Shown: positions 8,486-22,990, numbered from the stretch's first letter. The stretch: 24,000 bases of DNA from Candidatus Obscuribacterales bacterium (GCA_021732085.1 JAKFVQ010000030.1:69965-93964); one strand, 5' to 3'. Notes: a model not told the origin generated them from the letters alone. Program-made: numbers and translations.

Positions 8486-8829
8486 GACTGGAATAACTCC
8501 GTACAGATTGATTTGCGCAATACTTAATAAAGCTCAACTTCAAGAAGCTGGCTCTACCGCCAACTCGCTATAAAATTCTAAGAAGTCGGCAATTAGGCCT
8601 TATGCTATCATCTCCCCCAGAGACTTATGACCGCTAGTGCATACTAAGGCGGTTAAAAATTTACGAATTGAGCACGGTTTCCGGGCTCAAGAAATCATTC
8701 CCGCTAAACGCCAAGAGCAAGAGCGGTGATGAAAGCTCCTCATAAAAAGTGCCTAAGAAATCAACGGCAGTTTACAGAGGGCATTATTGTCCGCACCGAA
8801 ATACAACAAAAGAAGCCCGAAACAAGCTG

Positions 8830-10293
8830 ATGACAATTGAAAAACCGGAAGACGTCTGCCTCGATTTGCCACTTGAACAAATTTGGGAGCAAGCCCTGAG
8901 TATCCTCGAGAAGACGATCAAGGGTCCTTTCCTTGATGCCTGGGTTCGCGGGATGACGCTTTCGGCGATAAATCAATCGCAAGCTACTTTCAGCGTTGCC
9001 AACAGCATGGCGCTTGGTTGGCTTCAAAATGCCAAGCACGCGAAGAATGCCATTGCAGACGCCCTGGAGCAAATAACCGGGCGCAATTTGGAGATCGAAA
9101 TCAAAATCGACCCAACAGTCAAACCAAAGGTTTACACGCCTTCTATTGCTTCGATAACAGTCGCCCCGGATAGCCTGCCAGCAGGTCCTGGAGCTGGTTT
9201 CCCCAGCTCGCCGAAGCGTTCTTCGGAGCACGGAGAAACGGCGAACTTCGAAAGAAATTTGCGTTCGGAACAATCAAATCTAAATCCAAAACACATTTTC
9301 GAAACATTCGTCGTTGGCTCTAGCAATCGCTTTTGTCATTCGGCTTCCATGGCGGTCGCCGACAAGCCGGGAGCGTCTTACAATCCTCTCTTCCTTTATG
9401 GTGGTGTAGGACTCGGAAAAACACACTTATTGCATGCAATCGGCAATCACATTTTACGTATGGCACCAAATACGGTGGTACGTTATTTAACCTGCGAAAA
9501 ATTCACCAACGACGTGGTCAACTCAATTCGTCAAAATGACATGATCCAATTTCGCAAGAAGTACAGGACTGTCGATCTGCTTCTGATGGATGACATCCAG
9601 TTCATTGAAGGAAAAGAAGCAACGCAAGAAGAGTTCTTCCATACTTTTAACGCCCTGCGTGACAGCGGCAAGCAAATTGTTCTCACTAGCGATCGTCCTC
9701 CCAAAGCATTAGGACATCTGGAAGAGCGCCTGCGTAGCCGCTTCGAATGGGGGCTGATAGCTGATATCCAACCACCCGACTATGAAATGCGCCTGGCCAT
9801 CCTCAGCAAGAAAGCTGATCAGGAAGGAATGGCAATACCGGAAGATGTGTTGGCTTACATCGCGCGTAGTTTCTCAAGCAACATTCGTGAGCTGGAAGGC
9901 GCTTTGCTGCGCGCTCACGCATTTGGAAAGCTCACCGGCGAACCTTTGACTATGGTGTCGGTAATGCAAGTGCTTCAAACTGGAAACCAGCGGAAAGAGC
10001 GACCCCAACTGACAATCGATCAACTAATTGATGCAGTATCTTCGTATTACAAAGTTGAATCATCGGATCTTAAATCTTCGAAACGTTCACAGGATCTAAC
10101 GGTACCTCGACATATAGCTATGTATCTAGCACATGAGATCCTCTTGCTAAGTTACCCGCGAGTGGGGCAAGCGTTCGGAAATCGCAAACACACATCGGCT
10201 TTATATGCATACGATAAGGTTAAGCAATCGATCTCGGAAGACCCCGAAATTGCTAGGGCAGTTGGCGAAATCTCCCGTCAATTGGACCGTTGA
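8830..10293 (+). CDS. dnaA: chromosomal replication initiator protein DnaA
   Basis: Walker A GGVGLGKTHLLHAIG, Walker B LLLMDDIQF and the C-terminal DNA-binding helix VPRHIAMYLAHEIL...GNRKHTSALYAY are present. The track ORF starts at a GTG (8749) immediately after a stop. I prefer ATG 8830 (MTIEKPEDV...), but the start is uncertain. Confidence 0.9.
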   Translation: MTIEKPEDVCLDLPLEQIWEQALSILEKTIKGPFLDAWVRGMTLSAINQSQATFSVANSMALGWLQNAKHAKNAIADALEQITGRNLEIEIKIDPTVKPKVYTPSIASITVAPDSLPAGPGAGFPSSPKRSSEHGETANFERNLRSEQSNLNPKHIFETFVVGSSNRFCHSASMAVADKPGASYNPLFLYGGVGLGKTHLLHAIGNHILRMAPNTVVRYLTCEKFTNDVVNSIRQNDMIQFRKKYRTVDLLLMDDIQFIEGKEATQEEFFHTFNALRDSGKQIVLTSDRPPKALGHLEERLRSRFEWGLIADIQPPDYEMRLAILSKKADQEGMAIPEDVLAYIARSFSSNIRELEGALLRAHAFGKLTGEPLTMVSVMQVLQTGNQRKERPQLTIDQLIDAVSSYYKVESSDLKSSKRSQDLTVPRHIAMYLAHEILLLSYPRVGQAFGNRKHTSALYAYDKVKQSISEDPEIARAVGEISRQLDR

Positions 10294-10760
10294 GTGCTTT
10301 TAGAAAAGCTGTAGAAAACTTGTGCATTGTCTGTAAGAGATCTGTACGACAAGTTTTCGGGCACAGATCACAAGCAGATCGATAAACACAGGCCGAGAAC
10401 ATCTTATCTACAGCCCAGATCTAAGCAGCTCAATGTTATCCAGGGTTATCTACAGAAAACGAGCTCCCTTACTAATACTATTTATTTATTTCAGAGAAAG
10501 AAAGAACAGAAGCAACTAACAAGAGTGATTGAGATTGGCTTGTAGCAACGATCCGGAAAGATATCGATCACGATCCCCTTATCCAAACGATATGCAAAAC
10601 GCTGATCAGATCCTGATCGGATCCGATTTCGATCCAGATCAATATGTTCAACCAAACGACAAGTTCCAGAAGGTCAGCGAATATTCATGCTGGGAAGCTT
10701 GCGAATTCCTCGCGGGATCTGTAATCTTTAGAGCATAGTTTTCTTCACGGGTGAGAAGCC
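10294..10760. promoter_or_regulatory. putative chromosomal origin of replication (oriC) in the dnaA-dnaN spacer
   Basis: Four co-oriented DnaA-box-like 9-mers: TTATCTACA (10404-10412), TTATCCAGG (10436-10444), TTATCTACA (10446-10454) and TTATCCAAA (10579-10587). An AT-rich tract ACTAATACTATTTATTTATTT lies at ~10471-10491. There are 14 GATC sites between 10339 and 10719. No credible ORF. Confidence 0.6.
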
Positions 10761-11945
10761 ATGCACTTTGCCATTCAGAAAGAGGTTTTGGTAAAAGCTC
10801 TCAGAGATGTGAGCAACGCAATCGCTAACAGGGTTGTTCAACCAGTCTTGAGTAACGTACTGATCGAAGCAGTAGATAGCGTAACACTCAGATTCACTGG
10901 AACAGACCTTGATCTCACCATCCGCACGAATACACCAGCAGTTGTTTACACGTCAGGATCAATAACGCTGCCCGGTAAGAAACTTCTCGAAGTCGTTTCG
11001 AAGTTGGCTAACGATCTCGTATCTTTTCAAATCAACCCGGAAAACCAAGAAACTACAGTTACGTGCCAAAAGTCGAAGTTCTCTCTATCAGGACTTTCAG
11101 CACAGGACTATCCGAAAATCGGTGACGCCAGCGCAAGCGAAGGCTTCTTGATGCCGACCGACATTCTTCGCCGCTCAATCATTCAAACATCATTTGCAGC
11201 AGCTACTTACGACGTTAGCAGCATCCTTGGCGGTGTTTATTTGCTCGTTCAAGATGGTGCCTTCGAAGCGACAGCCACAGATGGTAGCCGCCTGGCGCAT
11301 AGACGTGAAGAGTTGAACGTAAGCGCGCCGGCGTCACGCAAGACAGACGGCGACAAAGAGACCGCAGCAAAGTCGAGTACAGCTACTCTCGAGAAGCCAC
11401 ATGAATTGAAAGCAATCGTGCCGGCACGTGCGTGTACTGAGCTGCTGAAAATATTTGATAGCAAAGAGCCTGGAGCGCGTGTTCGCGTAGCAGTTGTAGA
11501 CGGACAGATTGCATTTGAAAGCGATTCGCACTTTGTTCTCACACGTTTGATCGGTGGCGAGTATCCTCGTTACCACGAGCTCTTCCCAACTGAATTCACT
11601 TATCTAGCGCAATTTAAGCGCGAAGAATTATTGGCAGCCGTAGAGCGCGTTGCGGTCATGTCAGACGAAAGAACAAACTTGATCAAGCTGCACTTCGAGG
11701 CAGAGTCCGTACAGGTGAGCTCCAACACGCCAGACGTAGGACGCGCACAGGAAGAAGTTTCCAGCAAGTTCGAAGGACAAGTTCTCGACATCGCCGTTAA
11801 CGTACGTTACGTTCTTGATGTACTTCAAAAATTGAGCTCATCCGACGTCCGTCTAGAAATGACGGGACCTTTGAAGCCTCTGATTTTCAAGGGTGAAGGG
11901 GAAGATAATTACAAATATCTCCTCATGCCGGTGCAGGCTAGATAA
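10761..11945 (+). CDS. dnaN: DNA polymerase III beta sliding clamp
   Basis: 394-aa ORF directly after dnaA. The N-terminus MHFAIQKEVLVKALRDVSNAIANR...PVLSNVLIEA and the C-terminus YKYLLMPVQ are typical of DnaN. An extra charged insert sits at ~aa 185-210. Confidence 0.9.
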   Translation: MHFAIQKEVLVKALRDVSNAIANRVVQPVLSNVLIEAVDSVTLRFTGTDLDLTIRTNTPAVVYTSGSITLPGKKLLEVVSKLANDLVSFQINPENQETTVTCQKSKFSLSGLSAQDYPKIGDASASEGFLMPTDILRRSIIQTSFAAATYDVSSILGGVYLLVQDGAFEATATDGSRLAHRREELNVSAPASRKTDGDKETAAKSSTATLEKPHELKAIVPARACTELLKIFDSKEPGARVRVAVVDGQIAFESDSHFVLTRLIGGEYPRYHELFPTEFTYLAQFKREELLAAVERVAVMSDERTNLIKLHFEAESVQVSSNTPDVGRAQEEVSSKFEGQVLDIAVNVRYVLDVLQKLSSSDVRLEMTGPLKPLIFKGEGEDNYKYLLMPVQAR

Positions 11946-12008
11946 CCTTGTGATATACTGCACTGGTCGGCTCACAGAAGTGAGTCCGATTTGAGTCCAA
12001 GAAATTCT

Positions 12009-12082
12009 GGGATCGTAGCTCAGCTGGTTAGAGCGCCTGCCTGTCACGCAGGAGGTCGCGGGTTCGAGTCCCGTCGGTCCCG
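12009..12082 (+). tRNA. tRNA-Asp (anticodon GTC), no encoded CCA
   Basis: Manual cloverleaf: acceptor GGGATCG/CGGTCCC, D-arm GCTC-AGCTGGTTA-GAGC, anticodon arm CCTGC-CTGTCAC-GCAGG, T-arm GCGGG-TTCGAGT-CCCGT, discriminator G. Confidence 0.9.
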
Positions 12083-12104
12083 AATTTTTTTTCAATAGTT
12101 GTTA

Positions 12105-12948: not shown

Positions 12949-14649
12949 ATGGGAATTCCAAGATCAAGGACCAAAAGAAAACGTTCTTTGCGCAGCGGCT
13001 ATTTTGTTAGTCTTGCAGGTACTCTTTCTCTGTCCTTATTAGCCGGATTTATGCAGTCCAGCGATGCGGAGAGCATTTACGATCAGGTCATGCGATCAGA
13101 GAGAGCCAAACAGCAAAAGAATTCATCAAGTACTAATGCAGGAGCAAGTAACGCCATCACTGGTGGTGCAGCGAATTCGTCTCCATCTTCAGGGCAGTCC
13201 CCATATCCCTCTAGTGTGCAAGGACAATCTCCAAATCCTTCAAGCGCGCAAAGCGATGGCTCCAATCCAACTGGCGGTCAAGGTGGATCCGGAGTCCGAA
13301 CTCCATCCAAAGTACAAAATGCAGTAAATCGCGGCATACAGAGCGGTATACAAAGAGGGTTGAACCATGGCACCAATGCTATTGATAGGCTTGGTAGAAA
13401 GTTTGGAATTCAGGGACTTGGGTCGAGTTTGAGCTCCCCAAATGGAATGTCGATTCCCAATGGACAGTCAATTCCCAATGGACAGTCAATTCCATCAGGA
13501 GGGCAGCCTTATTCGCCCGCGCTCGGATCTCAAGCAAACGGACCTGAAGAGTCGTCTTACAGAAGGCATGTCACGCCATCTGTTTCTCAATCAAGCGGGG
13601 CGAACGATGATGGCAGAGCCGCTTGGGAAGCAGCGGGCAAACGTGCTCGCGAATCACAAAATAATGCGTATCTTACATCAGCGCAAAATGCTGAAGCTCG
13701 CGGAGATTGGATGCAGGCAGCATTTGCGTACAATCAAGCAATGGGTGACACGATTAGAACAGAAGATGACGAAGCAGGAAGAAGGAATCACACAGGCTCT
13801 AACGATGAGATGATTAAAAGGCAAGCACGGGATCCCGCTTTCAAGACGTTGAACATGAAGTCAGCCTATTGCTGGACTCAGTTAATCAACCAGATATATG
13901 CTGGCCAGGTCAAGAATGTTGACCCTAGGCATTGTGAAAGTCAGCTGGAACACAGCTATGCTTATTTGAAACTGCGTGACCCAGGAAATGCTGCCTGGCA
14001 TTATCTCGATGCGGTCTATTATTGCTCCGACAATAGAACAAAAGACTGGCACTACATTCTTGCTTGGAATCGAATTATCGATGCGCTTAAGTGTCCGCGA
14101 CTTACACCATCCATCAAAGCGAAGTGCTTGGCGTTGCAGGCCCATATCAAGCTAGCAAAAGAGCTACAACAAAATGACATGAGACGTGCCGTTTTTAGCA
14201 TGGAACAAGACCTTGTTTGGAATGTCGAACATCCCCACATAGCGGGCACAGAATACAGCACTTCCAGGGTTCAGATTGACGAAACGCATGAACGAGTGAC
14301 GACATATGCGAGGGATTATCTGAATACGGAACTTTGGGCTGTCGAGACCTACGATGATTGCAAAAAGGACATAGCGCAGAACTTCCCTGCATTCAAAACT
14401 AAATGGTTGAAACAGCTGAACGATATGATGGCCATGCCTAATCACGGGATGCCTGTGCCACCAGGTCCTTCCAATGAAGAGCCTGCGATATACTGCCCTC
14501 CTCGTTGGGAAGAGCTCGCTTTTGGTCCGTTGGATCTTACAATTGGAAGACAGTATCCTAATGGTGGACCTGGAAGCGGCCACTGTGATCCCGATCTTCT
14601 TCCGCGAGCCTATATTCAGGCGATGAACCGGAAAGTTAAAGGCAAGTAG
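12949..14649 (+). CDS. secreted hypothetical protein with S/G/Q/P-rich low-complexity N-terminal half and Cys-containing C-terminal domain
   Basis: GGAG lies 6 nt upstream of the ATG. A basic N-terminus plus the hydrophobic segment YFVSLAGTLSLSLLAGFMQSSDA looks like a signal peptide. The 566-aa ORF has no family I recognise. Confidence 0.75.
   Translation: MGIPRSRTKRKRSLRSGYFVSLAGTLSLSLLAGFMQSSDAESIYDQVMRSERAKQQKNSSSTNAGASNAITGGAANSSPSSGQSPYPSSVQGQSPNPSSAQSDGSNPTGGQGGSGVRTPSKVQNAVNRGIQSGIQRGLNHGTNAIDRLGRKFGIQGLGSSLSSPNGMSIPNGQSIPNGQSIPSGGQPYSPALGSQANGPEESSYRRHVTPSVSQSSGANDDGRAAWEAAGKRARESQNNAYLTSAQNAEARGDWMQAAFAYNQAMGDTIRTEDDEAGRRNHTGSNDEMIKRQARDPAFKTLNMKSAYCWTQLINQIYAGQVKNVDPRHCESQLEHSYAYLKLRDPGNAAWHYLDAVYYCSDNRTKDWHYILAWNRIIDALKCPRLTPSIKAKCLALQAHIKLAKELQQNDMRRAVFSMEQDLVWNVEHPHIAGTEYSTSRVQIDETHERVTTYARDYLNTELWAVETYDDCKKDIAQNFPAFKTKWLKQLNDMMAMPNHGMPVPPGPSNEEPAIYCPPRWEELAFGPLDLTIGRQYPNGGPGSGHCDPDLLPRAYIQAMNRKVKGK
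13438..13500 (+). repeat. in-frame 18-bp tandem repeat (~3.5 copies) encoding (S/M)IPNGQ units
   Basis: ATTCCCAATGGACAGTCA at 13453-13470 is repeated exactly at 13471-13488, with degenerate flanking copies. The protein reads PNGMSIPNGQSIPNGQSIPSGGQ. Confidence 0.8.
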
Positions 14650-17357: not shown

Positions 17358-18179
17358 ATGCATCATCGAGAAAGAGATTTCAGCGCGGACAGAATTCAGA
17401 GCGCCATACTAGATGGGGTTAATCGTGATGGAAAGCCGGATCTAACTGAAGCACAACGTTTGCTGAACGCAGCGTTTTTGAATTTGCCATCGGAGAAATT
17501 CAACAAAATTGCGACTGATCTTGAAGTCCGCAATAGTGATTACCAGTGGCAGAAAGAGGAGGACGAACGCTCCGGCAGGACTCGACATGGCAATATTGCA
17601 AGCGGTTTAGGAGATGTGTCTGTTCATCGCGACCGGCATGGGAATGTTGTCGCTATGGTAATCAACGATTCTAAGGGATGGCACGCTATGGGTGCCGATA
17701 TCGTCGGAACGCGCGTTTTTGATGCAGGCAATCCAAAATTGTTGGATACAGGTCGAGTAGCGCAGCATCGCACTGAATACGCTTCTGTGCTGCCTCAGGA
17801 GAATGTGGTTAACCAATCAGTGTCGAACCGAATAGAAGTAAGACCGTTGCCCGCTCCTGCCCAACGAATCATGGCTCCGGAGATGATGATGCCGCCGGAT
17901 CAATATTCGCGCGGGCTTAGACAAGATATTGTCGATTGTTCGACCTATACGATAAGGAAGGATGATAATTGGTTGGTTATTGCGCAAAAATTGCATCCCG
18001 AGTTGCATCGCTATCGGGATTTACTTGATGAAGCCCATCGCTTGAAAGCCATCAATGGCGGTACCATTAATTTGAGAGTAGGTCAAAAAATTGCCACCAG
18101 AGATGCATACGATATTGACCGTGAGGTGCGCGCGCGCATGGCTCATGCTTATGGATGGAATCGTAACCGTCAGTATTAA
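17358..18179 (+). CDS. hypothetical protein with C-terminal LysM-like peptidoglycan-binding domain
   Basis: RBS GGGAGAG is present. The C-terminus YTIRKDDNWLVIAQKL...INGGTINLRVGQKIA fits the LysM pattern. The N-terminal 190 aa are unassigned. Confidence 0.7.
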   Translation: MHHRERDFSADRIQSAILDGVNRDGKPDLTEAQRLLNAAFLNLPSEKFNKIATDLEVRNSDYQWQKEEDERSGRTRHGNIASGLGDVSVHRDRHGNVVAMVINDSKGWHAMGADIVGTRVFDAGNPKLLDTGRVAQHRTEYASVLPQENVVNQSVSNRIEVRPLPAPAQRIMAPEMMMPPDQYSRGLRQDIVDCSTYTIRKDDNWLVIAQKLHPELHRYRDLLDEAHRLKAINGGTINLRVGQKIATRDAYDIDREVRARMAHAYGWNRNRQY

Positions 18180-18409: not shown

Positions 18410-18438
18410 TTGACAGGACTTCGAAGAGTGATTTAAAT
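18410..18438 (+). promoter_or_regulatory. putative sigma70-type promoter of the rsr / Y RNA locus
   Basis: Perfect -35 TTGACA (18410-18415), 17-nt spacer, -10 TTAAAT (18433-18438). This implies a ~390-nt leader before rsr. Confidence 0.45.
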
Positions 18439-18836
18439 TGGTCTTTAGATACGGAGTATTAGTTATGAAGTCGGCGAACGCAAAATTGAATATAAATCAA
18501 TTGCCGACCAGCGGCGTGGGGGCCACGTGCCCACGGACAGGCCGCTCCGATGCTATGCTCTGGTCGCAAATGTATTCAGATCACGGTAGACGCCCCGAAG
18601 AGAAACTTGATTCTCAGCGAAGCTAATTCACCCAGTGCTCTGACAGGTAAATCGATTGTAGCGGCGACGGTGTAGCTTTCCACAGTGGAAGTTCTGCACA
18701 AGTCTTTGCAAAATCGCGAGAAACCGTAAATGTTCCTGACTTTGCAGGTGGTGCTGGCAACATCGCTTATTCGCTTGCAGGTCGGTTTCTCGTCCACTTC
18801 CAATTCAAACAACGTGCCGAAAGGGGACGATGCAAA

Positions 18837-20462
18837 ATGTTCAACACTCTAAGAAATTTCATACTCAACAAGGCAACCCAGAGACAACACTTGCCAGGAA
18901 CCGTGCCGAACTCAGCCGGTGGCTATTCATTTGCGGTCGATTCCTGGAAGCAGTTCGAGAGATTTCTTTTGCTCGGAACAACCGGTGGAACATACTACAT
19001 CGGTGAACGCGACTTGACCAAGGAAAACCTGGACGCAGTGCTTAAGTGCATTGACGAAGATGGTGGACTGGCAGTAAGGCTGATTGAAGATGTTTCAATT
19101 GCCGGTCGCGCTCCAAAGAATGACCCTGCTATTTTTGCTCTGGCACTTGCTTGCTCAACAAGCAACGACCTGACGAGACAGTTGGCTCTGAATGCAGTGC
19201 CGAATGTTTGCAGAACCTTCACTCATCTTTCGCACTTCCTGACTTACATCAAGCAAGGAAAATTGCGCGGTTTTGGACGAGGTCTGACAAGAGCGATAGC
19301 GCGTTGGTTCAACGAAAAGCCAGTGGCAGATCTGGCGTATCAAGCCATTAAGTATCAATCTCGCGATGGCTACAGCCAGCAAGACGTATACAGACTTTCT
19401 CACCCTGCTCGTTTTTTGAAGCTGGATGCGGAAAGTCCTCGAAGACTGATTTATAACTTCATCGCAAAAGGCGAAGTGCCGGAGGAACTCGAAAATTTTG
19501 AAAGCGATGAGTATATTCCTGTTCTGAGACTTGCTGCGGCTCAAGGAGTTCTAAAAGGAAGAACGGAAAATATTCCGCTGGCAATTGACCAATGGGATTT
19601 GCCGATGGAAACTGTTCCGACTGAAAGTCGAACACGTGAAGTGTACAAAGCTGTTTTGCGCAAGGCTGGTTTGACCTGGATTCTGCGCAACTTGGGAAAC
19701 CTGACGGCTCAAGGAGTTCTGGACACAAAAGCTGATCTGGAATTCGTGATCGAGAGGCTGACCTCGCGAACACAGCTGCGAAAAGCGCGCATTCACCCGC
19801 TGGCTATCTTCCAAGCTCTGCGCATTTATGCTGCAGGCCGTGGATTCAAGGGAACCAACACATGGACTCCCAAGCGTAAATTGATCGATGCACTGGATAC
19901 AGCATTCTATGCTTCTTTCAAGGACGTTGAGCCAAGCGGTAAGCGAATCTTGTACGCGGTAGACGTATCTGGATCAATGCGAGGAGCTCGCGCATCAGGG
20001 TTGACTAACATCTCTGTCTTTGAAGCTGCCGCTGTAATGACAATGGCTGCTGCAAGTGTGGAAGATGATTTCACTTTGATCGCTTTCGATACCGGTACAT
20101 TTGAACTCAACCAACTGTCAAACAGACAAAGACTCGATGACATTGTGGCTAGATTTCAAAGTTTCGGTGGAGGTGGAACGGATTGCGCACTTCCGTTCAA
20201 ATACGCCCTGGACAAGAAGCTGGCGGTTGACGCATTTGTCGTCTTCACGGACAGCGAAACCTGGGCGGGGAACCAACATCCAATCGTTGCTCTGGATGAA
20301 TACAGAAAGCGCATGAATTTGCCGAATACAAAGGCTATTAACGTAGCTATGACGGCGAATCGCTTCACAACACTGCCCGCCTCAGATCCGCTCACTCTCG
20401 AGTGCTACGGATTTGACACAAGCATTCCGTCGGTGATCAGTTTGTTCCTGACGGGAGGCTAA
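18837..20462 (+). CDS. rsr: Ro 60-kDa autoantigen orthologue (Rsr): TROVE domain + von Willebrand A domain
   Basis: The N-terminal region NSAGGYSFAVDSWKQFERFLLLGTTGGTYYIGE is typical of TROVE/Ro60. The C-terminus has the vWA MIDAS motif YAVDVSGSM. Y-RNA-like genes follow immediately downstream. Confidence 0.9.
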   Translation: MFNTLRNFILNKATQRQHLPGTVPNSAGGYSFAVDSWKQFERFLLLGTTGGTYYIGERDLTKENLDAVLKCIDEDGGLAVRLIEDVSIAGRAPKNDPAIFALALACSTSNDLTRQLALNAVPNVCRTFTHLSHFLTYIKQGKLRGFGRGLTRAIARWFNEKPVADLAYQAIKYQSRDGYSQQDVYRLSHPARFLKLDAESPRRLIYNFIAKGEVPEELENFESDEYIPVLRLAAAQGVLKGRTENIPLAIDQWDLPMETVPTESRTREVYKAVLRKAGLTWILRNLGNLTAQGVLDTKADLEFVIERLTSRTQLRKARIHPLAIFQALRIYAAGRGFKGTNTWTPKRKLIDALDTAFYASFKDVEPSGKRILYAVDVSGSMRGARASGLTNISVFEAAAVMTMAAASVEDDFTLIAFDTGTFELNQLSNRQRLDDIVARFQSFGGGGTDCALPFKYALDKKLAVDAFVVFTDSETWAGNQHPIVALDEYRKRMNLPNTKAINVAMTANRFTTLPASDPLTLECYGFDTSIPSVISLFLTGG

Positions 20463-20468
20463 AGGAGC

Positions 20469-20520
20469 TAGCTGGTGGATAGACAATTTGCTTAGCAAAT
20501 ACGAGTTCACCAGCTATTTT
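20469..20520 (+). terminator. long hairpin plus T-run after rsr (terminator or processing structure)
   Basis: Outer stem TAGCTGGTG (20469-20477) / CACCAGCTA (20508-20516), inner hairpin ATTTGC-TTA-GCAAAT, then TTTT. Confidence 0.5.
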
Positions 20521-20535
20521 CCACTTTAGGTTTTC

Positions 20536-20613
20536 GGTGCGAGCCGAATCAAGAGGTTTATCGTCTGTCACACGAATCCACCCTCTTTAGCATAAATTGC
20601 TCGCACCATTTTT
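20536..20613 (+). ncRNA. Y-RNA-like module 1 (short, YrlB-like)
   Basis: Perfect 9-bp closing stem GGTGCGAGC (20536-20544) / GCTCGCACC (20599-20607). C20545 is unpaired and followed by GAA. Second helix AAGAGG (20551-20556) / CCTCTT (20582-20587). A GTTTATCG motif is present. The module ends in T5. Confidence 0.7.
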
Positions 20614-20622
20614 ACTGAACAC

Positions 20623-20696
20623 GCCTCTGAAGATTACCGGATATGATCATCGAGCTACGAACTCGAAGGCAGTTGGTTCGATTCCAACCGGGGGCA
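20623..20696 (+). tRNA. tRNA-Arg(ACG)-like gene, non-canonical (A at position 8)
   Basis: Manual cloverleaf: acceptor GCCTCTG/CGGGGGC (two G-U pairs), D-arm GATT-ACCGGATAT-GATC, anticodon arm TCGAG-CTACGAA-CTCGA, variable AGGCA, T-arm GTTGG-TTCGATT-CCAAC, discriminator A. Confidence 0.6.
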
Positions 20697-20746
20697 TTGT
20701 TTAACTTCAGTGGCACCGTGCGCGCCCCGCGTTACCGGATTAGAAT

Positions 20747-20819
20747 ACTCCGTTCTTCTAGTGGTTTAGGAAACCGTTCTTTCAAGACGGGAAGATGAGT
20801 TCAATTCTCATACGGAGTG
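20747..20819 (+). tRNA. tRNA-Glu(TTC)-like gene, non-canonical (A1-U72, AT-rich T stem)
   Basis: Manual cloverleaf: acceptor ACTCCGT/ACGGAGT, TC, D-arm TTCT-AGTGGTTTA-GGAA, anticodon arm CCGTT-CTTTCAA-GACGG, variable GAAG, T-arm ATGAG-TTCAATT-CTCAT, discriminator G. Confidence 0.6.
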
Positions 20820-20854
20820 ATGTTTGTATGCGCAAAATCGCGTTTTAAAAGGAG

Positions 20855-20998
20855 GTGGCTCGGACCGAATTGATAAGGTTATCGATCATAACGAGGGGTC
20901 GGTGGTTCAAGTCCACCCAGCGGCTTGCCGCTGTAGCTCAGTTGGTTAGAGCACCAAAAACGCCTTATCAAAATAAATTGTCCGAGCCATTGCTTTTG
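20855..20998 (+). ncRNA. Y-RNA-like module 2 with tRNA-like domain (YrlA-like)
   Basis: Closing stem GGCTCGGAC (20857-20865) / GTCCGAGCC (20980-20988), with C20866 unpaired and followed by GAA. Second helix TGATAAGG (20871-20878) / CCTTATCA (20963-20970). The interior holds T-arm GGTGG-TTCAAGT-CCACC (20901-20917), capped acceptor-like hairpin CAGCGG-CTTG-CCGCTG (20918-20933) and D-arm GCTC-AGTTGGTTA-GAGC (20936-20952). A T-rich tail follows. Confidence 0.75.
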
Positions 20999-21002
20999 GT
21001 TT

Positions 21003-21097
21003 TGCATGGACCGAATGGAGAAGTTTATCGACACAGTTAGGAAGGTGGGCTTGCGAATCCACCTGGCGCACGTCAAAGCTATTGGCATGCGTTTATG
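21003..21097 (+). ncRNA. Y-RNA-like module 3 (degenerate T-arm-like hairpin)
   Basis: The 5' end GCATGGACCGAATGGAGAAGTTTATCG carries the shared motif. GCATG (21004-21008) pairs with CATGC (21086-21090). An internal hairpin GGTGG-(10-nt loop)-CCACC lies at 21045-21064. The module ends GTTTAT. Pairing is less regular than in modules 1, 2, 5 and 6. Confidence 0.5.
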
Positions 21098-21130
21098 ACT
21101 TCTTCGAATAGATCGTCTATGCAGCTTATC

Positions 21131-21210
21131 CTGTGCGAGCCGAACGAAAGAAGGTTATCGTTTTTCCACGAACTAATCACACTATCTAAATCGTTCGCGT
21201 TCACGTTTTA
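21131..21210 (+). ncRNA. Y-RNA-like module 4 (short)
   Basis: The 5' end TGTGCGAGCCGAACGAAAGAAGGTTATCG carries the shared motif. CGAACGA (21141-21147) pairs with TCGTTCG (21191-21197). Imperfect lower pairing GTG/CAC. The module ends GTTTTAT. Confidence 0.5.
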
Positions 21211-21223
21211 TCCTTGGAAGTAA

Positions 21224-21318
21224 GATCTGGTGCGAGCCGGAGTGAGAGGCTTATCGTCTTTGTAAACGACTCAACACCCTCTCAGCGCGAAATAGTTCGC
21301 ACCAGATTCTCAATTTTT
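21224..21318 (+). ncRNA. Y-RNA-like module 5 (short, YrlB-like)
   Basis: 13-bp closing stem ATCTGGTGCGAGC (21225-21237) / GTTCGCACCAGAT (21295-21307), with C21238 unpaired. Second helix TGAGAGG (21243-21249) / CCTCTCA (21278-21284). A CTTATCG motif is present. The tail reads TTCTCAATTTTT. Confidence 0.7.
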
Positions 21319-21334
21319 GGAAGCTAGATAGAAA

Positions 21335-21476
21335 TGCGCGGACCGAAGCGAGAAGATTATCTTGAAGCCGAGCACGGGGATGGTTCAATTCCACCTGGCG
21401 GCACGCCGACAGAGCTCAAGGGGCGAGCAGCTCGGAGGTCTCTTCGCAATAAGTTGTCTGTGCAACTATATTTTGA
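21335..21476 (+). ncRNA. Y-RNA-like module 6 with tRNA-like domain (YrlA-like)
   Basis: Closing stem TGCGCGGAC (21335-21343) / GTCTGTGCA (21456-21464, two G-U pairs), with C21344 unpaired and followed by GAA. Second helix GCGAGAAGA / TCTCTTCGC (one mismatch). The interior holds T-arm-like GATGG-TTCAATT-CCACC (21379-21395), capped hairpin TGGCGG-CACG-CCGACA and D-arm-like GAGCT...AGCTC (21412-21433). The tail reads TATTTT. Confidence 0.7.
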
Positions 21477-21489
21477 ATTGTGTAAACGC

Positions 21490-21587
21490 GACACGCGAGC
21501 CGAACAGATGAAGTTTATCGATAGTTCCAAACTAACGAAACCACCAAGCCAGACTTCGTCGCACATGAATCGCTCGCGTCTTTTATT
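21490..21587 (+). ncRNA. Y-RNA-like module 7 (short)
   Basis: CGCGAGC (21494-21500) pairs with GCTCGCG (21572-21578), followed by an unpaired C and GAA. Second helix ATGAAG (21508-21513) / CTTCGT (21554-21559). A GTTTATCG motif is present. The module ends TCTTTTATT. Confidence 0.6.
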
Positions 21588-21654
21588 GTTTGAACTGAAG
21601 AAGTGGGACTATGTGGACTTGTTATCCCACGCTTATTTGCCTGTTCTAAAGCGC

Positions 21655-21966
21655 TTAAGCGACTGAGCTTTCTGCCGCAGAGCCGTCGTTCATGCGAGTT
21701 TTGAGATCTTCTGTGAAAGAATTGCAAAGGTTGCTTGCTTTTTCTTTCAATTCAAGGCTCTTCTCTTTGACTTGTCCAGCCAATTCTTTGGTTTTGTCTG
21801 CAATATCATGTCGCAGCTCTTCGCCTGGTTTTGGTGCAAACAGATTGCCGAGGACAAATCCTGCTGTCATGCCGGCAACCGTACCAACTACAGCACCAGC
21901 AGTCGCTCCTACGAAGAAGACAACTTGCATTGTTTTTAGTGTTGGATTGAGCAAGCTATTGAACAT
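21655..21966 (-). CDS. YtxH-domain (general stress-type) small membrane-anchored protein
   Basis: GATAGAVVGTVAGMTAGFVLGNLFAPKPGEELRHDI matches the YtxH pattern and is followed by a charged helical tail. I place the start at ATG comp(21964..21966), preceded by GGGAG, rather than at the track's TTG at 21981. Confidence 0.75.
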   Translation of the reverse strand: MFNSLLNPTLKTMQVVFFVGATAGAVVGTVAGMTAGFVLGNLFAPKPGEELRHDIADKTKELAGQVKEKSLELKEKASNLCNSFTEDLKTRMNDGSAAESSVA

Positions 21967-22179
21967 AATCTTTTCTCCCAAATGCGTTCTGACGTTTGGT
22001 TCTAGACAGAGGGTCGTCTAAATAGTTCCGGGCGTCTGAATTGTTTGGTCTGAGCTTAAGAGAAAATAGTTTGCTTTGATATAGTGGTGGATTGGTGAAG
22101 ATTCTCAAAACTTCCATCACCAGTAGATGTTTTGTCCTCCCTGCGCAAACGGGATACTAAACGAAGTAGTAGCAATACC

Positions 22180-22214
22180 CCAAAAAGCAAAGACTTCGCA
22201 AGCAATTTGCGGAG
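22180..22214 (-). terminator. rho-independent terminator after the 87-aa gene
   Basis: An 8-bp stem spans 22194-22201 / 22207-22214. On the minus strand it is followed by TCTTTGCTTTTTGG. Confidence 0.5.
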
Positions 22215-22234
22215 CCTTCGCTTCTTTGAAAAGG

Positions 22235-22498
22235 TTACCAGGTCTTCATCTCGGATGCATCCCAGAGGGAGGCTTCGACGTTGTTGCCGTCGGCGTCCTT
22301 GAGTGCGAGGAAGTAGACCCAGGTGATGCTATCCACTGCGGCTTGCTGATACTCAGTGTATTTCTTGCCGTCGGGCATGGTGTACCGTTTGAGGCTGTAC
22401 CAGACGGCGGAAATGGATCCGATATTCTCGACGCTTACGGCGTTAGCCACAAGCGCGGAAGCGGAAGGATTCAGGCCAGCCAGGCGGGACCTTTTCAT
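22235..22498 (-). CDS. hypothetical protein (87 aa)
   Basis: GGAGA lies 6 nt upstream of the ATG. The amino-acid composition is balanced. GC-rich third codon positions match the neighbouring gene. A terminator lies downstream. Confidence 0.6.
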   Translation of the reverse strand: MKRSRLAGLNPSASALVANAVSVENIGSISAVWYSLKRYTMPDGKKYTEYQQAAVDSITWVYFLALKDADGNNVEASLWDASEMKTW

Positions 22499-22532
22499 AA
22501 CTGTCTCCGTGAAGAGTGGTGGATGATAAATG

Positions 22533-22565
22533 CTCTAAAAGAGGCGAGCGCATTGCTGCGCTCGC
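22533..22565 (-). terminator. strong hairpin / terminator between two minus-strand genes
   Basis: Perfect 9-bp stem GCGAGCGCA (22544-22552) / TGCGCTCGC (22557-22565) with a 4-nt loop. On the minus strand it is followed by CTCTTTTAG. Confidence 0.55.
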
Positions 22566-22579
22566 AGGAAATGTCGTGC

Positions 22580-22990
22580 CTATTGGCTGCGATTCTCCAG
22601 CCAGCGCGGAATAACGCGCGTGCCGAAGTAGAACCCAAGTGCGCTGGCGAAGCCCAAAAGAGCCACGCCGAGCAGGGCACCGGGGTCGAAATAGTTGGGT
22701 GCGGGGGTGGTTCCCTTACCCAAATCGGCCAGCACCATAACCAGATAGATTATGTTGGACGAGCCAACTCCGGCGGCGAGAAGCCCCTGGAGAGACAGGT
22801 CCAATTTCTTGTCGATGAAGACGAGAAGTGCGGCGACGAATGCTGCAAATGCGGTGCCGAAAGTGGTCAGGATGAGTGCCACGAGCGGCCACATGAAGTG
22901 CGGATCCATCCAGTTGAGGATGACGCTGGCGGTGAAGCCAAGCAATCCGCCGCATGTTGCGCCTAGCAAAACGCCAATCGGTTTAATCAT
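22580..22990 (-). CDS. small Gly/Ala-rich integral membrane protein (136 aa, ~4 TM)
   Basis: I place the start at ATG comp(22988..22990), preceded by GGAAAGGAAA. The track's longer 185-aa form adds an N-terminus with no RBS. Hydrophobic segments run throughout. Confidence 0.65.
   Translation of the reverse strand: MIKPIGVLLGATCGGLLGFTASVILNWMDPHFMWPLVALILTTFGTAFAAFVAALLVFIDKKLDLSLQGLLAAGVGSSNIIYLVMVLADLGKGTTPAPNYFDPGALLGVALLGFASALGFYFGTRVIPRWLENRSQ

What the first reader, a model, noticed from the sequence alone, without database searches (positions are those of the whole stretch)
18410..21590. Ro60/Rsr gene followed by a tandem array of seven Y-RNA-like modules
Seven same-strand hairpin modules lie in the 1.1 kb downstream of the TROVE+vWA protein. 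They start near 20536, 20855, 21003, 21131, 21224, 21335 and 21490. Each opens with a 5' strand ending GAGC or GGAC, followed by an unpaired C, then GAA (GGA in module 5). After 5-8 nt comes (G/A)(T/G)TTATC(G). Each closes with a complementary 3' strand followed by a T-run. This mirrors the metazoan Y RNA 5' end (GGUCCGAAGG...GUUAUC), including the bulged C in the Ro-binding helix. Stems stay paired while their sequences differ (GGTGCGAGC/GCTCGCACC vs GGCTCGGAC/GTCCGAGCC vs TGCGCGGAC/GTCTGTGCA). That is compensatory-change-type support for structure rather than coding. To my knowledge, described bacterial rsr loci carry one to a few Y RNAs. A seven-member array mixing long (YrlA-like) and short (YrlB-like) forms would be unusually expanded. 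No rtcB or rtcA is visible next to it in this window.
Basis: partly seen in the sequence, partly recalled or inferred. Interest (0 to 1): 0.85.

Follow-up and report, generated by a model that had tools for sequence, protein, structure and literature searches.

The report
Seven Y-RNA genes behind bacterial Ro60
A bacterial Ro60 (Rsr) gene is followed by seven genuine Y-RNA-like genes and two tRNA genes; this is a known kind of RNA-protein system, in the largest copy number seen among 136 such loci examined here.

Summary
ORF 18837-20462 is an Rsr/Ro60 orthologue. Downstream, on the same strand, lie exactly seven modules (20536-21579). Each has a lower stem, a bulged C, GAA/GGA, an upper stem and UUAUC. 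Covariance models built only from distant rsr loci rank all seven as the best non-tRNA hits in the 24-kb window (115 to 20 bits; the next hit scores 8).

Module 2 is a full YrlA-type tRNA mimic. Modules 3 and 6 are partial mimics. Modules 1, 4, 5 and 7 are short hairpin types. Modules 4 and 7 are the weakest.

They are conserved in the four closest relatives, and they recall the Deinococcus Yrn2-tRNA-Yrn1 precursor.

The window comes from a Candidatus Obscuribacterales chromosome, near dnaA. Relatives carry 3-8 modules. Other phyla and phages carry 1-5, always on the rsr strand. The array is therefore expanded in degree, not in kind. The overlapping ORFs show no coding signature.

This is a new member of a known kind, of moderate interest. 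A conserved, unannotated ~400-nt leader upstream of rsr may be the more novel feature.

The parts
18410..18439 (+). Promoter-like site TTGACA-N18-TAAATT upstream of the rsr leader
   Evidence: Consensus scan gives 10/12 matches. TTGACA is identical and the second hexamer nearly so (TACATT in L083) in relatives with 86-96% Rsr identity, while the DNA upstream of it diverges. Function is inferred.
18440..18836 (+). Conserved ~400-nt leader (or separate ncRNA) between the promoter and the rsr start codon
   Evidence: It is highly conserved in 5 close relatives. nhmmer also finds it upstream of rsr in L086, L003 and L087. Predicted long hairpins include an invariant 10-bp helix. There is no Rfam match. 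The 53-codon ORF inside it has variable sites spread 16/15/17 over codon positions.
18837..20462 (+). rsr: Ro60 orthologue (TROVE ring plus vWA domain with DxSxS MIDAS motif)
   Evidence: Pfam, NCBIfam Rsr and PDB 2NVO/1YVP all match. D376, S378 and S380 are invariant among 17 homologues.
20470..20515 (+). Compound hairpin directly after the rsr stop codon, followed by AUUUU
   Evidence: -19.6 kcal/mol, z -4.7. It is conserved in L082, with a compensatory change in the inner stem (UUUGC/GCAAA to CUUGC/GCAAG). Its role as terminator, attenuator or processing site is inferred.
20536..20607 (+). Y RNA module 1, short type (72 nt)
   Evidence: R1 36.9 bits, R2 26.9 bits. z -3.5. 94% identical to L082, against 47-60% for the flanking spacers. 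In orthologues the 9-nt core of the 5' strand (GGUGCGAGC) is invariant, and the 3' strand changes only by wobble-compatible transitions.
20623..20696 (+). tRNA-Arg (ACG)
   Evidence: Rfam tRNA 48.8 bits (gathering score 29) and ARAGORN. Mean column identity is 95% across five relatives. Position 8 is an atypical A (read from the sequence).
20746..20820 (+). tRNA-Glu (UUC)
   Evidence: Rfam tRNA 49.4 bits and ARAGORN. 99% identical to L082. It is conserved in the same position in L002, L082, L083 and L084.
20854..20991 (+). Y RNA module 2, full YrlA type (138 nt) with T arm, acceptor-like stem and D arm
   Evidence: R2 115.5 bits, E 5e-27. Rfam YrlA 45.8 bits, E 1e-8, below the gathering score of 69. 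z -5.0. 95% identical to L082.
21002..21124 (+). Y RNA module 3, long type (123 nt) with a T-arm-like hairpin and a second hairpin but no D arm
   Evidence: R2 37.8 bits, E 7e-8. z -3.4. An orthologue is present in L082.
21133..21200 (+). Y RNA module 4, short type (68 nt), weakest member
   Evidence: R2 20.2 bits, R1 15.2 bits. The upper stem is poorly paired and z is -0.7. Orthologues are kept in L082 and L002, with changes that strengthen the lower stem.
21224..21308 (+). Y RNA module 5, short type (85 nt), 14-bp lower stem, GGA instead of GAA
   Evidence: R1 31.5 bits, R2 26.9 bits. z -4.4. Orthologues are present in L082 and L083.
21335..21464 (+). Y RNA module 6, diverged YrlA type (130 nt) with T-arm-like, short acceptor-like and D-arm-like hairpins
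   Evidence: R2 56.3 bits, E 2e-12. 88% identical to L082. The fold has the family architecture, but z is only -0.4.
21493..21579 (+). Y RNA module 7, short type (87 nt)
   Evidence: R2 20.0 bits, R1 14.1 bits. z -3.7. It is absent from L082 (48% identity there). Similar terminal modules occur in L002 and L084.
21603..21630 (.). Hairpin GUGGGA...UCCCAC plus U-rich tail, between the array and the convergent ytxH-like gene; a probable bidirectional terminator
   Evidence: Read from the sequence. L082 has CUGGGAC...GUCUCAG, so the pairing is kept through changes on both sides. The fold is weak, z -1.75. Function is inferred.

Best explanation
This is an rsr locus of a Candidatus Obscuribacterales (non-photosynthetic cyanobacterial sister group) chromosome. 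The Ro60 orthologue Rsr is followed by a cassette of seven Y RNA genes and two tRNA genes.

Each Y RNA pairs its 5' and 3' ends into a helix with a bulged C followed by GAA. This is the element that Ro60 proteins recognise, mainly through the 5' strand.

The distal end differs between copies. It is a full tRNA-like domain in m2, partial tRNA-like domains in m3 and m6, and simple hairpin loops in m1, m4, m5 and m7.

By analogy with Deinococcus and Salmonella, each Y RNA would dock on the outer face of the Rsr ring. There it would gate the central cavity and use its distal module to tether a partner such as PNPase. A set of different Y RNAs would thus give a set of differently equipped Rsr particles.

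The cassette is most likely transcribed from the conserved promoter at 18410, through rsr, as one precursor. The precursor would be cut by tRNA-processing enzymes at the two tRNAs and at tRNA-like domains. It would then be trimmed back to the Rsr-protected stems.

Shown here: the identity of the protein, the seven-fold architecture, its family-wide conservation and covariation, and its strand linkage to rsr. Inferred: Rsr binding, the partners, co-transcription and processing.
For: - Rsr identity.
- All seven modules are recovered by models built from other phyla or distant loci only.
- The architecture is supported by covariation. In ten independent short Y RNAs, 92.6% of cells are paired, against 36-48% when the partner is slid, and 15 of 22 pairs change on both sides. 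In 58 clade sequences, 91.8% are paired and 23 of 27 pairs change on both sides (this alignment is fitted to the model).
- All 304 model hits in 136 rsr loci lie on the rsr strand.
- The modules and tRNAs are 88-99% identical to the 96% relative (m1, m2, m6 and both tRNAs), while most spacers are 21-60% identical.
- Lower and upper stems differ in sequence between the seven copies yet stay paired.
- The motifs match published ones. GNCGAA resembles the GGUCCGA contacted by Xenopus Ro60, and there is a YUAY and T and D arms (PMC4201824).
- There is precedent for a Y RNA-tRNA-Y RNA polycistronic precursor in D. radiodurans.
- The tRNA-Arg/tRNA-Glu pair is kept at the same place in four relatives.
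Against: - There is no expression or binding data.
- Rfam's curated YrlA threshold is not reached (45.8 vs 69 bits), and the metazoan Y_RNA model does not match.
- m4 and m7 score only 14-20 bits. m4 has a poor upper stem, m4 and m6 fold no better than shuffles, and m7 is missing in the closest relative. Not all seven need be functional.
- A strong hairpin with a U-tail lies right after rsr (20470-20515). It could terminate transcription, in which case the array would need its own promoter, and none was found convincingly.
- T-runs after six of the modules may mean separate termination events rather than one precursor.
Confidence: 0.85

Rival explanations
1. Only some of the seven are working Y RNAs. 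The array is a birth-and-death family in which m4, m7 and perhaps m6 are decaying duplicates.
For: m4 and m7 have the lowest model scores. m4 lacks a proper upper stem, and m4 and m6 have z-scores near 0. m7 is replaced by unrelated sequence in L082. Copy number varies from 3 to 8 among close relatives. In L082 the m6 lower stem has two mismatches.
Against: m4 is kept in L082 and L002, with changes that preserve or strengthen pairing. m6 is 88% identical to L082 and scores 56 bits. m7 folds well (z -3.7), and similar terminal modules exist in L002 and L084.
Confidence: 0.3
2. The rsr-Y RNA-tRNA cassette is of phage origin and serves phage-host conflict. It might repair or replace tRNAs, or act as a decoy against anticodon nucleases, rather than perform housekeeping RNA quality control.
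For: Rsr homologues at 58% identity sit in phage-like contexts (lysozyme, SSB, helicase) and carry 3-4 modules. 47 IMG/VR viral contigs encode Rsr, and most of them show Y modules. Another Obscuribacterales rsr (L007) is followed by 16 tRNA genes. The two tRNAs here score low (49 bits) and are AU-rich, like many phage tRNAs. The literature links rsr operons to tRNA damage (PMC7790460).
Against: The locus lies about 7 kb from dnaA/dnaN in a chromosome. It has the same GC content as its surroundings and conserved flanking genes in several MAGs. No phage genes are in the window.
Confidence: 0.12
3. The modules are generic repeated hairpins (intrinsic terminators, REP-like elements) unrelated to Rsr.
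For: Six of the seven stems are followed by a T-run. The short modules share similar lower-stem sequences, as duplicated repeats would.
Against: The same architecture and motifs occur next to rsr, on its strand, in many phyla and in phages, and nowhere else in the 24-kb window. The simple terminator scan finds none of them. m2 carries a complete tRNA-like domain matching YrlA.
Confidence: 0.03
4. The region encodes small proteins (the 110-aa ORF 21334-21666 and the 61-aa ORF 20855-21040).
For: The 110-codon ORF is open in the window and in L082, and gene callers call it there. Its differences fall 38/26/46 on codon positions 1/2/3, a slight third-position excess.
Against: Neither ORF has a Pfam match, even at E 1. 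The 110-aa product is only 53% identical to that of L082, although the DNA of its m6 part is 88% identical. Within m6 the differences fall 5/5/6 on the codon positions. No such ORF is called in L083 or L084. The 61-codon ORF has frame-breaking indels against L082.
Confidence: 0.02

Closest known systems
D. radiodurans rsr locus (Yrn1, Yrn2, tRNA-Asp and small RNAs a, b, d)
   Same: Several small RNAs and a tRNA lie next to rsr on one strand. Yrn2-tRNA-Yrn1 is made as one precursor. Both strands of the Ro-binding helix are retained, as in metazoan Y RNAs. One RNA has a T arm and one is a long hairpin (PMC4201824).
   Different: The RNAs there lie upstream of rsr, whereas here they lie downstream. 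There, two are accepted Y RNAs and three are uncertain, whereas here seven copies share the Ro-binding helix. The tRNA there is Asp, whereas here there is an Arg plus Glu pair. The order of the T and D arms in m2 follows YrlA, not Yrn1.
YrlA (Rfam RF02553) and YrlB of Salmonella Typhimurium and M. smegmatis
   Same: m2 has the YrlA layout: a 5' Ro-binding motif, YUAY, V region, T arm, acceptor-like stem, D arm and a closing 3' strand. The short modules correspond to the 'long hairpin with small loop' class (YrlB, Yrn2).
   Different: m2 scores below the Rfam gathering score (45.8 vs 69). In Salmonella only the 5' strand of the Ro helix is recognisable, whereas here both strands and the bulged C are clear. 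There is no rtcBA operon here. There are seven copies instead of two.
Metazoan Y RNAs (hY1, hY3, hY4, hY5; Rfam RF00019)
   Same: Both have a terminal helix with a bulged C in a GGUCCGA-like context. A UUAUC follows the upper stem, as in hY1 and hY4 (from my own knowledge of those sequences). Vertebrates have two to four paralogues per genome.
   Different: The RF00019 model gives no match at E <= 10. The metazoan RNAs are separate Pol III genes without tRNA-like domains.

Membership tests
Bacterial Y RNA (Rsr-associated ncRNA, sensu Chen et al. 2013/2014) | Encoded within about 4 kb of the Ro60 orthologue, on the same strand | tested here: met
   All seven lie 74-1117 nt downstream of the rsr stop codon, on the + strand.
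Bacterial Y RNA (Rsr-associated ncRNA, sensu Chen et al. 2013/2014) | 5' and 3' ends pair into a long stem that carries the Ro60-binding motif (GNCGAA / GGUCCGA-like) | tested here: met
   Lower stems of 8-14 bp are followed by a bulged C and GAA (GGA in m5) in all seven. GAGCCGAA fits GNCGAA, and GGACCGA differs from GGUCCGA by one base. Covariation of this helix is shown.
Bacterial Y RNA (Rsr-associated ncRNA, sensu Chen et al. 2013/2014) | Bound by Rsr and dependent on Rsr for stable accumulation | not testable with these tools
   This needs immunoprecipitation or CLIP, and an rsr deletion.
Bacterial Y RNA (Rsr-associated ncRNA, sensu Chen et al. 2013/2014) | Expressed as a discrete RNA of about 70-150 nt | not testable with these tools
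   No transcriptome data are available. The predicted sizes are 68-138 nt.
YrlA (Rfam RF02553) | Score at or above the curated gathering score (69 bits) | tested here: not met
   m2 scores 45.8 bits (E 1e-8 in a 1.3-kb search). m3 and m6 give no hit.
YrlA (Rfam RF02553) | tRNA-like domain with T arm, acceptor-like stem and D arm, in that order | tested here: met
   m2 has GGUGG-UUCAAGU-CCACC, AGCGGC-UUGC-GCCGCU and GCUC-AGUUGGUUA-GAGC. m6 has diverged versions of all three. m3 has only a T-arm-like hairpin.
Metazoan Y RNA (Rfam RF00019) | Match to the family covariance model | tested here: not met
   No Y_RNA hit at E <= 10 in 20400-21700.
tRNA (Rfam RF00005) | Cloverleaf above the gathering score, with a readable anticodon | tested here: met
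   20623-20696 scores 48.8 bits (Arg ACG) and 20747-20819 scores 49.4 bits (Glu UUC). ARAGORN agrees.
rsr-yrlBA-rtcBA RNA repair operon (Salmonella type) | rtcB, rtcA and rtcR adjacent to rsr | tested here: not met
   No ORF in the window has an RtcB or RtcA domain. The neighbours are a 273-aa protein with no family match and a YtxH-like protein.

The most novel reading that the evidence does not exclude
In this Obscuribacterales lineage, Rsr has become the hub of an enlarged, modular RNA toolkit. Six to eight different Y RNAs act as interchangeable adapters that direct one Ro60 ring to different partners or substrates. Dedicated tRNA-Arg and tRNA-Glu genes are co-expressed with them. The whole unit is controlled by a previously undescribed ~400-nt structured leader RNA upstream of rsr, possibly an autoregulatory Rsr target.
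Probability: 0.15. Interest if true: 0.65.

Novelty: new member of a known kind. Interest (0 to 1): 0.42.

Why it matters
Y RNAs were found in humans as partners of the Ro60 autoantigen, but their mechanism is best understood in one bacterium with one or two such RNAs. A natural locus with seven distinct Y RNAs on one Ro60 gene would help in two ways. It has a metazoan-like two-stranded binding helix. It also has graded distal modules, from a full tRNA mimic to a plain hairpin. This gives a ready-made comparative series for asking what the distal modules recruit and why cells keep several Y RNAs. It also extends Y RNAs to the non-photosynthetic sister group of cyanobacteria. Finally, it shows that Rfam's single bacterial model misses most of them: six of seven here had no hit.

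Tried and rejected
- An Rfam scan at gathering thresholds found only tRNAs. At E <= 10 it added one sub-threshold YrlA hit and chance matches (Plastid-ycf2, ceN69).
- A plain MAFFT alignment of 19 short modules misaligned the 3' strands and was discarded. A 9-sequence alignment of long modules was trimmed to 6 for the same reason.
- The consensus promoter/terminator scan gave counts no higher than shuffles, and flagged none of the modules as terminators.
- The supplementary tables of Chen et al. 2014, which list YrlA copies per genome, are not held. The published maximum per locus could therefore not be read.
- Literature searches for tandem or expanded bacterial Y RNA arrays found nothing relevant.
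- I looked for a Y-RNA-like Rsr site at the rsr ribosome-binding site (GCCGAAAG at 18812-18819). I rejected it because it is not conserved in L003 and L087.
It added nothing beyond showing that the element is rare.
- The coding hypothesis for the 110-aa, 61-aa and 53-aa ORFs was rejected.

Full report
**What is in the sequence**

The window is a bacterial chromosome segment next to the replication origin. It holds yidC and jag/khpB on the minus strand, dnaA (8749-10293) and dnaN (10761-11945) on the plus strand, and a GC-skew sign change around 11-12 kb.

ORF 18837-20462 encodes a 541-aa protein with TROVE and Ro60-type vWA domains. It matches NCBIfam Rsr at E 4e-135. It also matches the solved structures of D. 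radiodurans Rsr and of Xenopus and human Ro60 at E 1e-95 to 1e-100. The MIDAS residues D376, S378 and S380 are invariant among 17 homologues.

The closest genomes are Candidatus Obscuribacterales MAGs, at 90% and 65% Rsr identity.

**The seven modules**

Reading and folding the 1.1 kb after the stop codon gives seven same-strand units:

| Module | Coordinates |
|---|---|
| m1 | 20536-20607 |
| m2 | 20854-20991 |
| m3 | 21002-21124 |
| m4 | 21133-21200 |
| m5 | 21224-21308 |
| m6 | 21335-21464 |
| m7 | 21493-21579 |

Each unit has the following elements, in order:
- a lower stem of 8-14 bp, whose 5' strand ends in GAGC or GGAC
- an unpaired C
- GA, which can pair with a U(U/C) just before the 3' strand in six of the seven modules (not m5)
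- a small internal loop
- an upper stem of 6-9 bp, poorly formed in m4
- UUAUC
- a variable distal part
- an A-rich 3' internal loop

The stems differ in sequence between copies and remain paired. For example, the lower stems are GGUGCGAGC/GCUCGCACC, GGUGGCUCGGAC/GUCCGAGCCAUU and UGCGCGGAC/GUCUGUGCA. The upper stems are AAGAGG/CCUCUU, UUGAUAAGG/CCUUAUCAA and GAUGAAG/CUUCGUC.

The one exception is m3, which has no T-run.

**Is it more than chance, and is it the Y RNA family?**

I built two covariance models from rsr loci that exclude the window and its relatives above 72% Rsr identity.

R1 was built from ten short modules: one each from three relatives at 49-72% Rsr identity (two Obscuribacterales, one cyanobacterium), one from an Armatimonadota MAG and six from Planctomycetota. 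On that alignment the proposed structure pairs 92.6% of cells, against 36-48% when the 3' partner is slid. 15 of its 22 pairs change on both sides.

Searching all 24 kb on both strands with filters off, R1's four best hits are m1, m5, m4 and m7 (36.9, 31.5, 15.2 and 14.1 bits).

R2 was built from six long modules of distant loci. It ranks all seven as the best non-tRNA hits. The scores are m2 115.5, m6 56.3, m3 37.8, m1 26.9, m5 26.9, m4 20.2 and m7 20.0 bits. The only hits ranking among them are the T-arm regions of two tRNAs, and the next hit scores 8.4 bits.

Rfam itself recognises only m2, as YrlA at 45.8 bits. This is E 1e-8 in the local search but below the gathering score of 69. It gives no metazoan Y_RNA hit.

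Thermodynamic z-scores are -3.4 to -5.0 for m1, m2, m3, m5 and m7. They are near zero for m4 and m6.

**Types**

m2 is a complete YrlA-type tRNA mimic. It has a T arm (GGUGG-UUCAAGU-CCACC), an acceptor-like stem and a D arm (GCUC-AGUUGGUUA-GAGC), in the YrlA order. m6 has diverged versions of all three. m3 has a T-arm-like hairpin and one further hairpin.

m1, m4, m5 and m7 are short hairpin forms. They correspond to the 'long hairpin with small loop' class of YrlB and Yrn2 (PMC4201824).

The published motifs are all present. These are GNCGAA, which resembles the GGUCCGA contacted by Xenopus Ro60, then YUAY, and the T and D arms. Both strands of the Ro helix and the bulged C are recognisable. 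That paper describes this as the Deinococcus/metazoan condition rather than the Salmonella one.

Two tRNA genes lie between m1 and m2: tRNA-Arg(ACG) at 20623-20696 and tRNA-Glu(UUC) at 20746-20820.

They occupy the same position in four relatives, L002, L082, L083 and L084. The five tRNA-Arg sequences have 95% mean column identity, and the tRNA-Glu is 99% identical to that of L082, while the spacers between them have diverged.

This matches the D. radiodurans precedent, in which Yrn2, tRNA-Asp and Yrn1 are made as one precursor.

**Conservation and turnover**

Against the relative with 96% Rsr identity (L082), m1, m2, m6 and both tRNAs are 88-99% identical. m3, m4 and m5 are 70-81% identical, with the changes concentrated in the distal parts. 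Most spacers are 21-60% identical. m7 is replaced there (48%).

In m1 orthologues the 9-nt core of the 5' strand (GGUGCGAGC) is invariant. The 3' strand changes only by transitions that keep G-U or G-C pairs. This fits the report that Ro60 reads mainly the 5' strand.

Module counts in the clade, from a sensitive R2 search:

| Locus | Rsr identity to the window | Modules |
|---|---|---|
| window | - | 7 |
| L082 | 96% | 6 |
| L002 | 90% | 8 |
| L083 | 88% | 3 |
| L084 | 86% | 6 |
| L086 | 72% | 3 |
| L003 | 65% | 6-7 |

The contig holding L087 (63%) ends after two modules.

**How unusual is seven?**

Across 88 genomic rsr loci and 47 viral contigs, every one of the 304 model hits lies on the rsr strand. 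Most loci have 1-3 modules.

Combining R1 and R2, several Streptosporangiales loci have 4 (for example L042, L056, L070, L076 and L079). A Dehalococcoidia locus (L041) has 5. Phage contigs have up to 3 at E <= 0.01. At that same threshold the window and its two closest relatives have 5, the highest count, and 6-8 with the sensitive search.

The expansion is real but quantitative. Multi-copy arrays are the rule rather than the exception. The literature already reports at least two Y RNAs in every characterised species, and five small RNAs next to Deinococcus rsr.

**Coding alternative**

The 110-codon ORF (21334-21666) and the 61-codon ORF (20855-21040) have no Pfam match at E 1.

The 110-aa product is 53% identical to its L082 counterpart, although the DNA under m6 is 88% identical. 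Differences within m6 fall 5/5/6 on the codon positions. The 61-codon ORF has frame-breaking indels. No such ORFs are called in L083 or L084.

The conserved stretch at the end of the 110-codon ORF is a hairpin (21603-21630) that keeps pairing through changes on both sides in L082. It is probably a terminator shared with the convergent ytxH-like gene.

**Mechanism (inferred)**

By analogy with the Deinococcus and Salmonella systems, each RNA would bind Rsr through the bulged-C helix. It would use its distal module to gate the ring or to tether a partner such as PNPase. Seven distinct distal modules would give a repertoire of particles.

Transcription probably starts at the conserved TTGACA-N18-TAAATT site at 18410 and runs through rsr. 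The hairpin at 20470-20515 may attenuate transcription or mark a processing site; it has z -4.7 and a compensatory change in L082. RNase P and RNase Z would release the tRNAs, and exonucleases would trim to the protected stems. None of this is shown here.

**Seen in passing**

The ~400 nt between that promoter and the rsr start codon are strikingly conserved in close relatives. They are detectable upstream of rsr down to 63% Rsr identity. They fold into long hairpins with an invariant 10-bp helix and match no Rfam family. They show no codon-position bias in the embedded 53-codon ORF. One exact-pattern scan of JGI metagenome contigs found the core helix only once. This may be a new structured leader RNA.

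**Verdict**

It is a new, unusually large member of the known class of Rsr-linked bacterial Y RNA loci. It sits in a lineage where these RNAs had not been described in the papers I could search. Interest is moderate.

Noticed in passing
window 18440-18836 (promoter-like site at 18410-18439): A ~400-nt leader upstream of rsr is highly conserved at the nucleotide level in five relatives. It is found by nhmmer upstream of rsr in three more distant ones. It is predicted to form long hairpins, including an invariant helix CGAGAAACC/GGUUUCUCG. It has no Rfam match, and the embedded 53-codon ORF shows no coding signature. It is a candidate new structured RNA or autoregulatory leader.
   Followed up: partly
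L007 1918-6704: In another Obscuribacterales MAG (Rsr 43% identical), rsr is followed directly by 16 tRNA genes on the same strand. The only Y-model hits there are partial matches to the T-arm regions of its tRNAs.
   Followed up: no
L088 5669-6115 and L089 3771-4244: The Rsr homologues at 58% identity lie among phage-type genes (lysozyme, SSB, helicase, Enc34-like ssDNA-binding protein). Each carries three to four Y modules downstream.
   Followed up: partly
L041 6573-7271: A Dehalococcoidia chromosome has five Y modules downstream of rsr (three long, two short). This is the largest array outside the Obscuribacterales clade in this sample.
   Followed up: no
window 17358-18179: A 273-aa ORF immediately upstream of the rsr leader has no Pfam or NCBIfam match. 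It is syntenic (271-272 aa) in L082, L083 and L084, so it may be functionally linked to rsr.
   Followed up: partly
window 8749-12083: dnaA, dnaN and a tRNA-Asp(GTC) gene lie here, and GC skew changes sign near 11-12 kb. The rsr cassette therefore sits about 7 kb from the probable replication origin.
   Followed up: no
window 20623-20696: The tRNA-Arg(ACG) has A instead of the near-universal U at position 8. Both array tRNAs score only about 49 bits, against 71.5 for the tRNA-Asp at 12009. Whether they are the housekeeping copies is unknown.
   Followed up: partly
window 12949-14649 and 22127-22966: Two sizeable ORFs (566 aa and 279 aa) have no Pfam or NCBIfam match.
   Followed up: no
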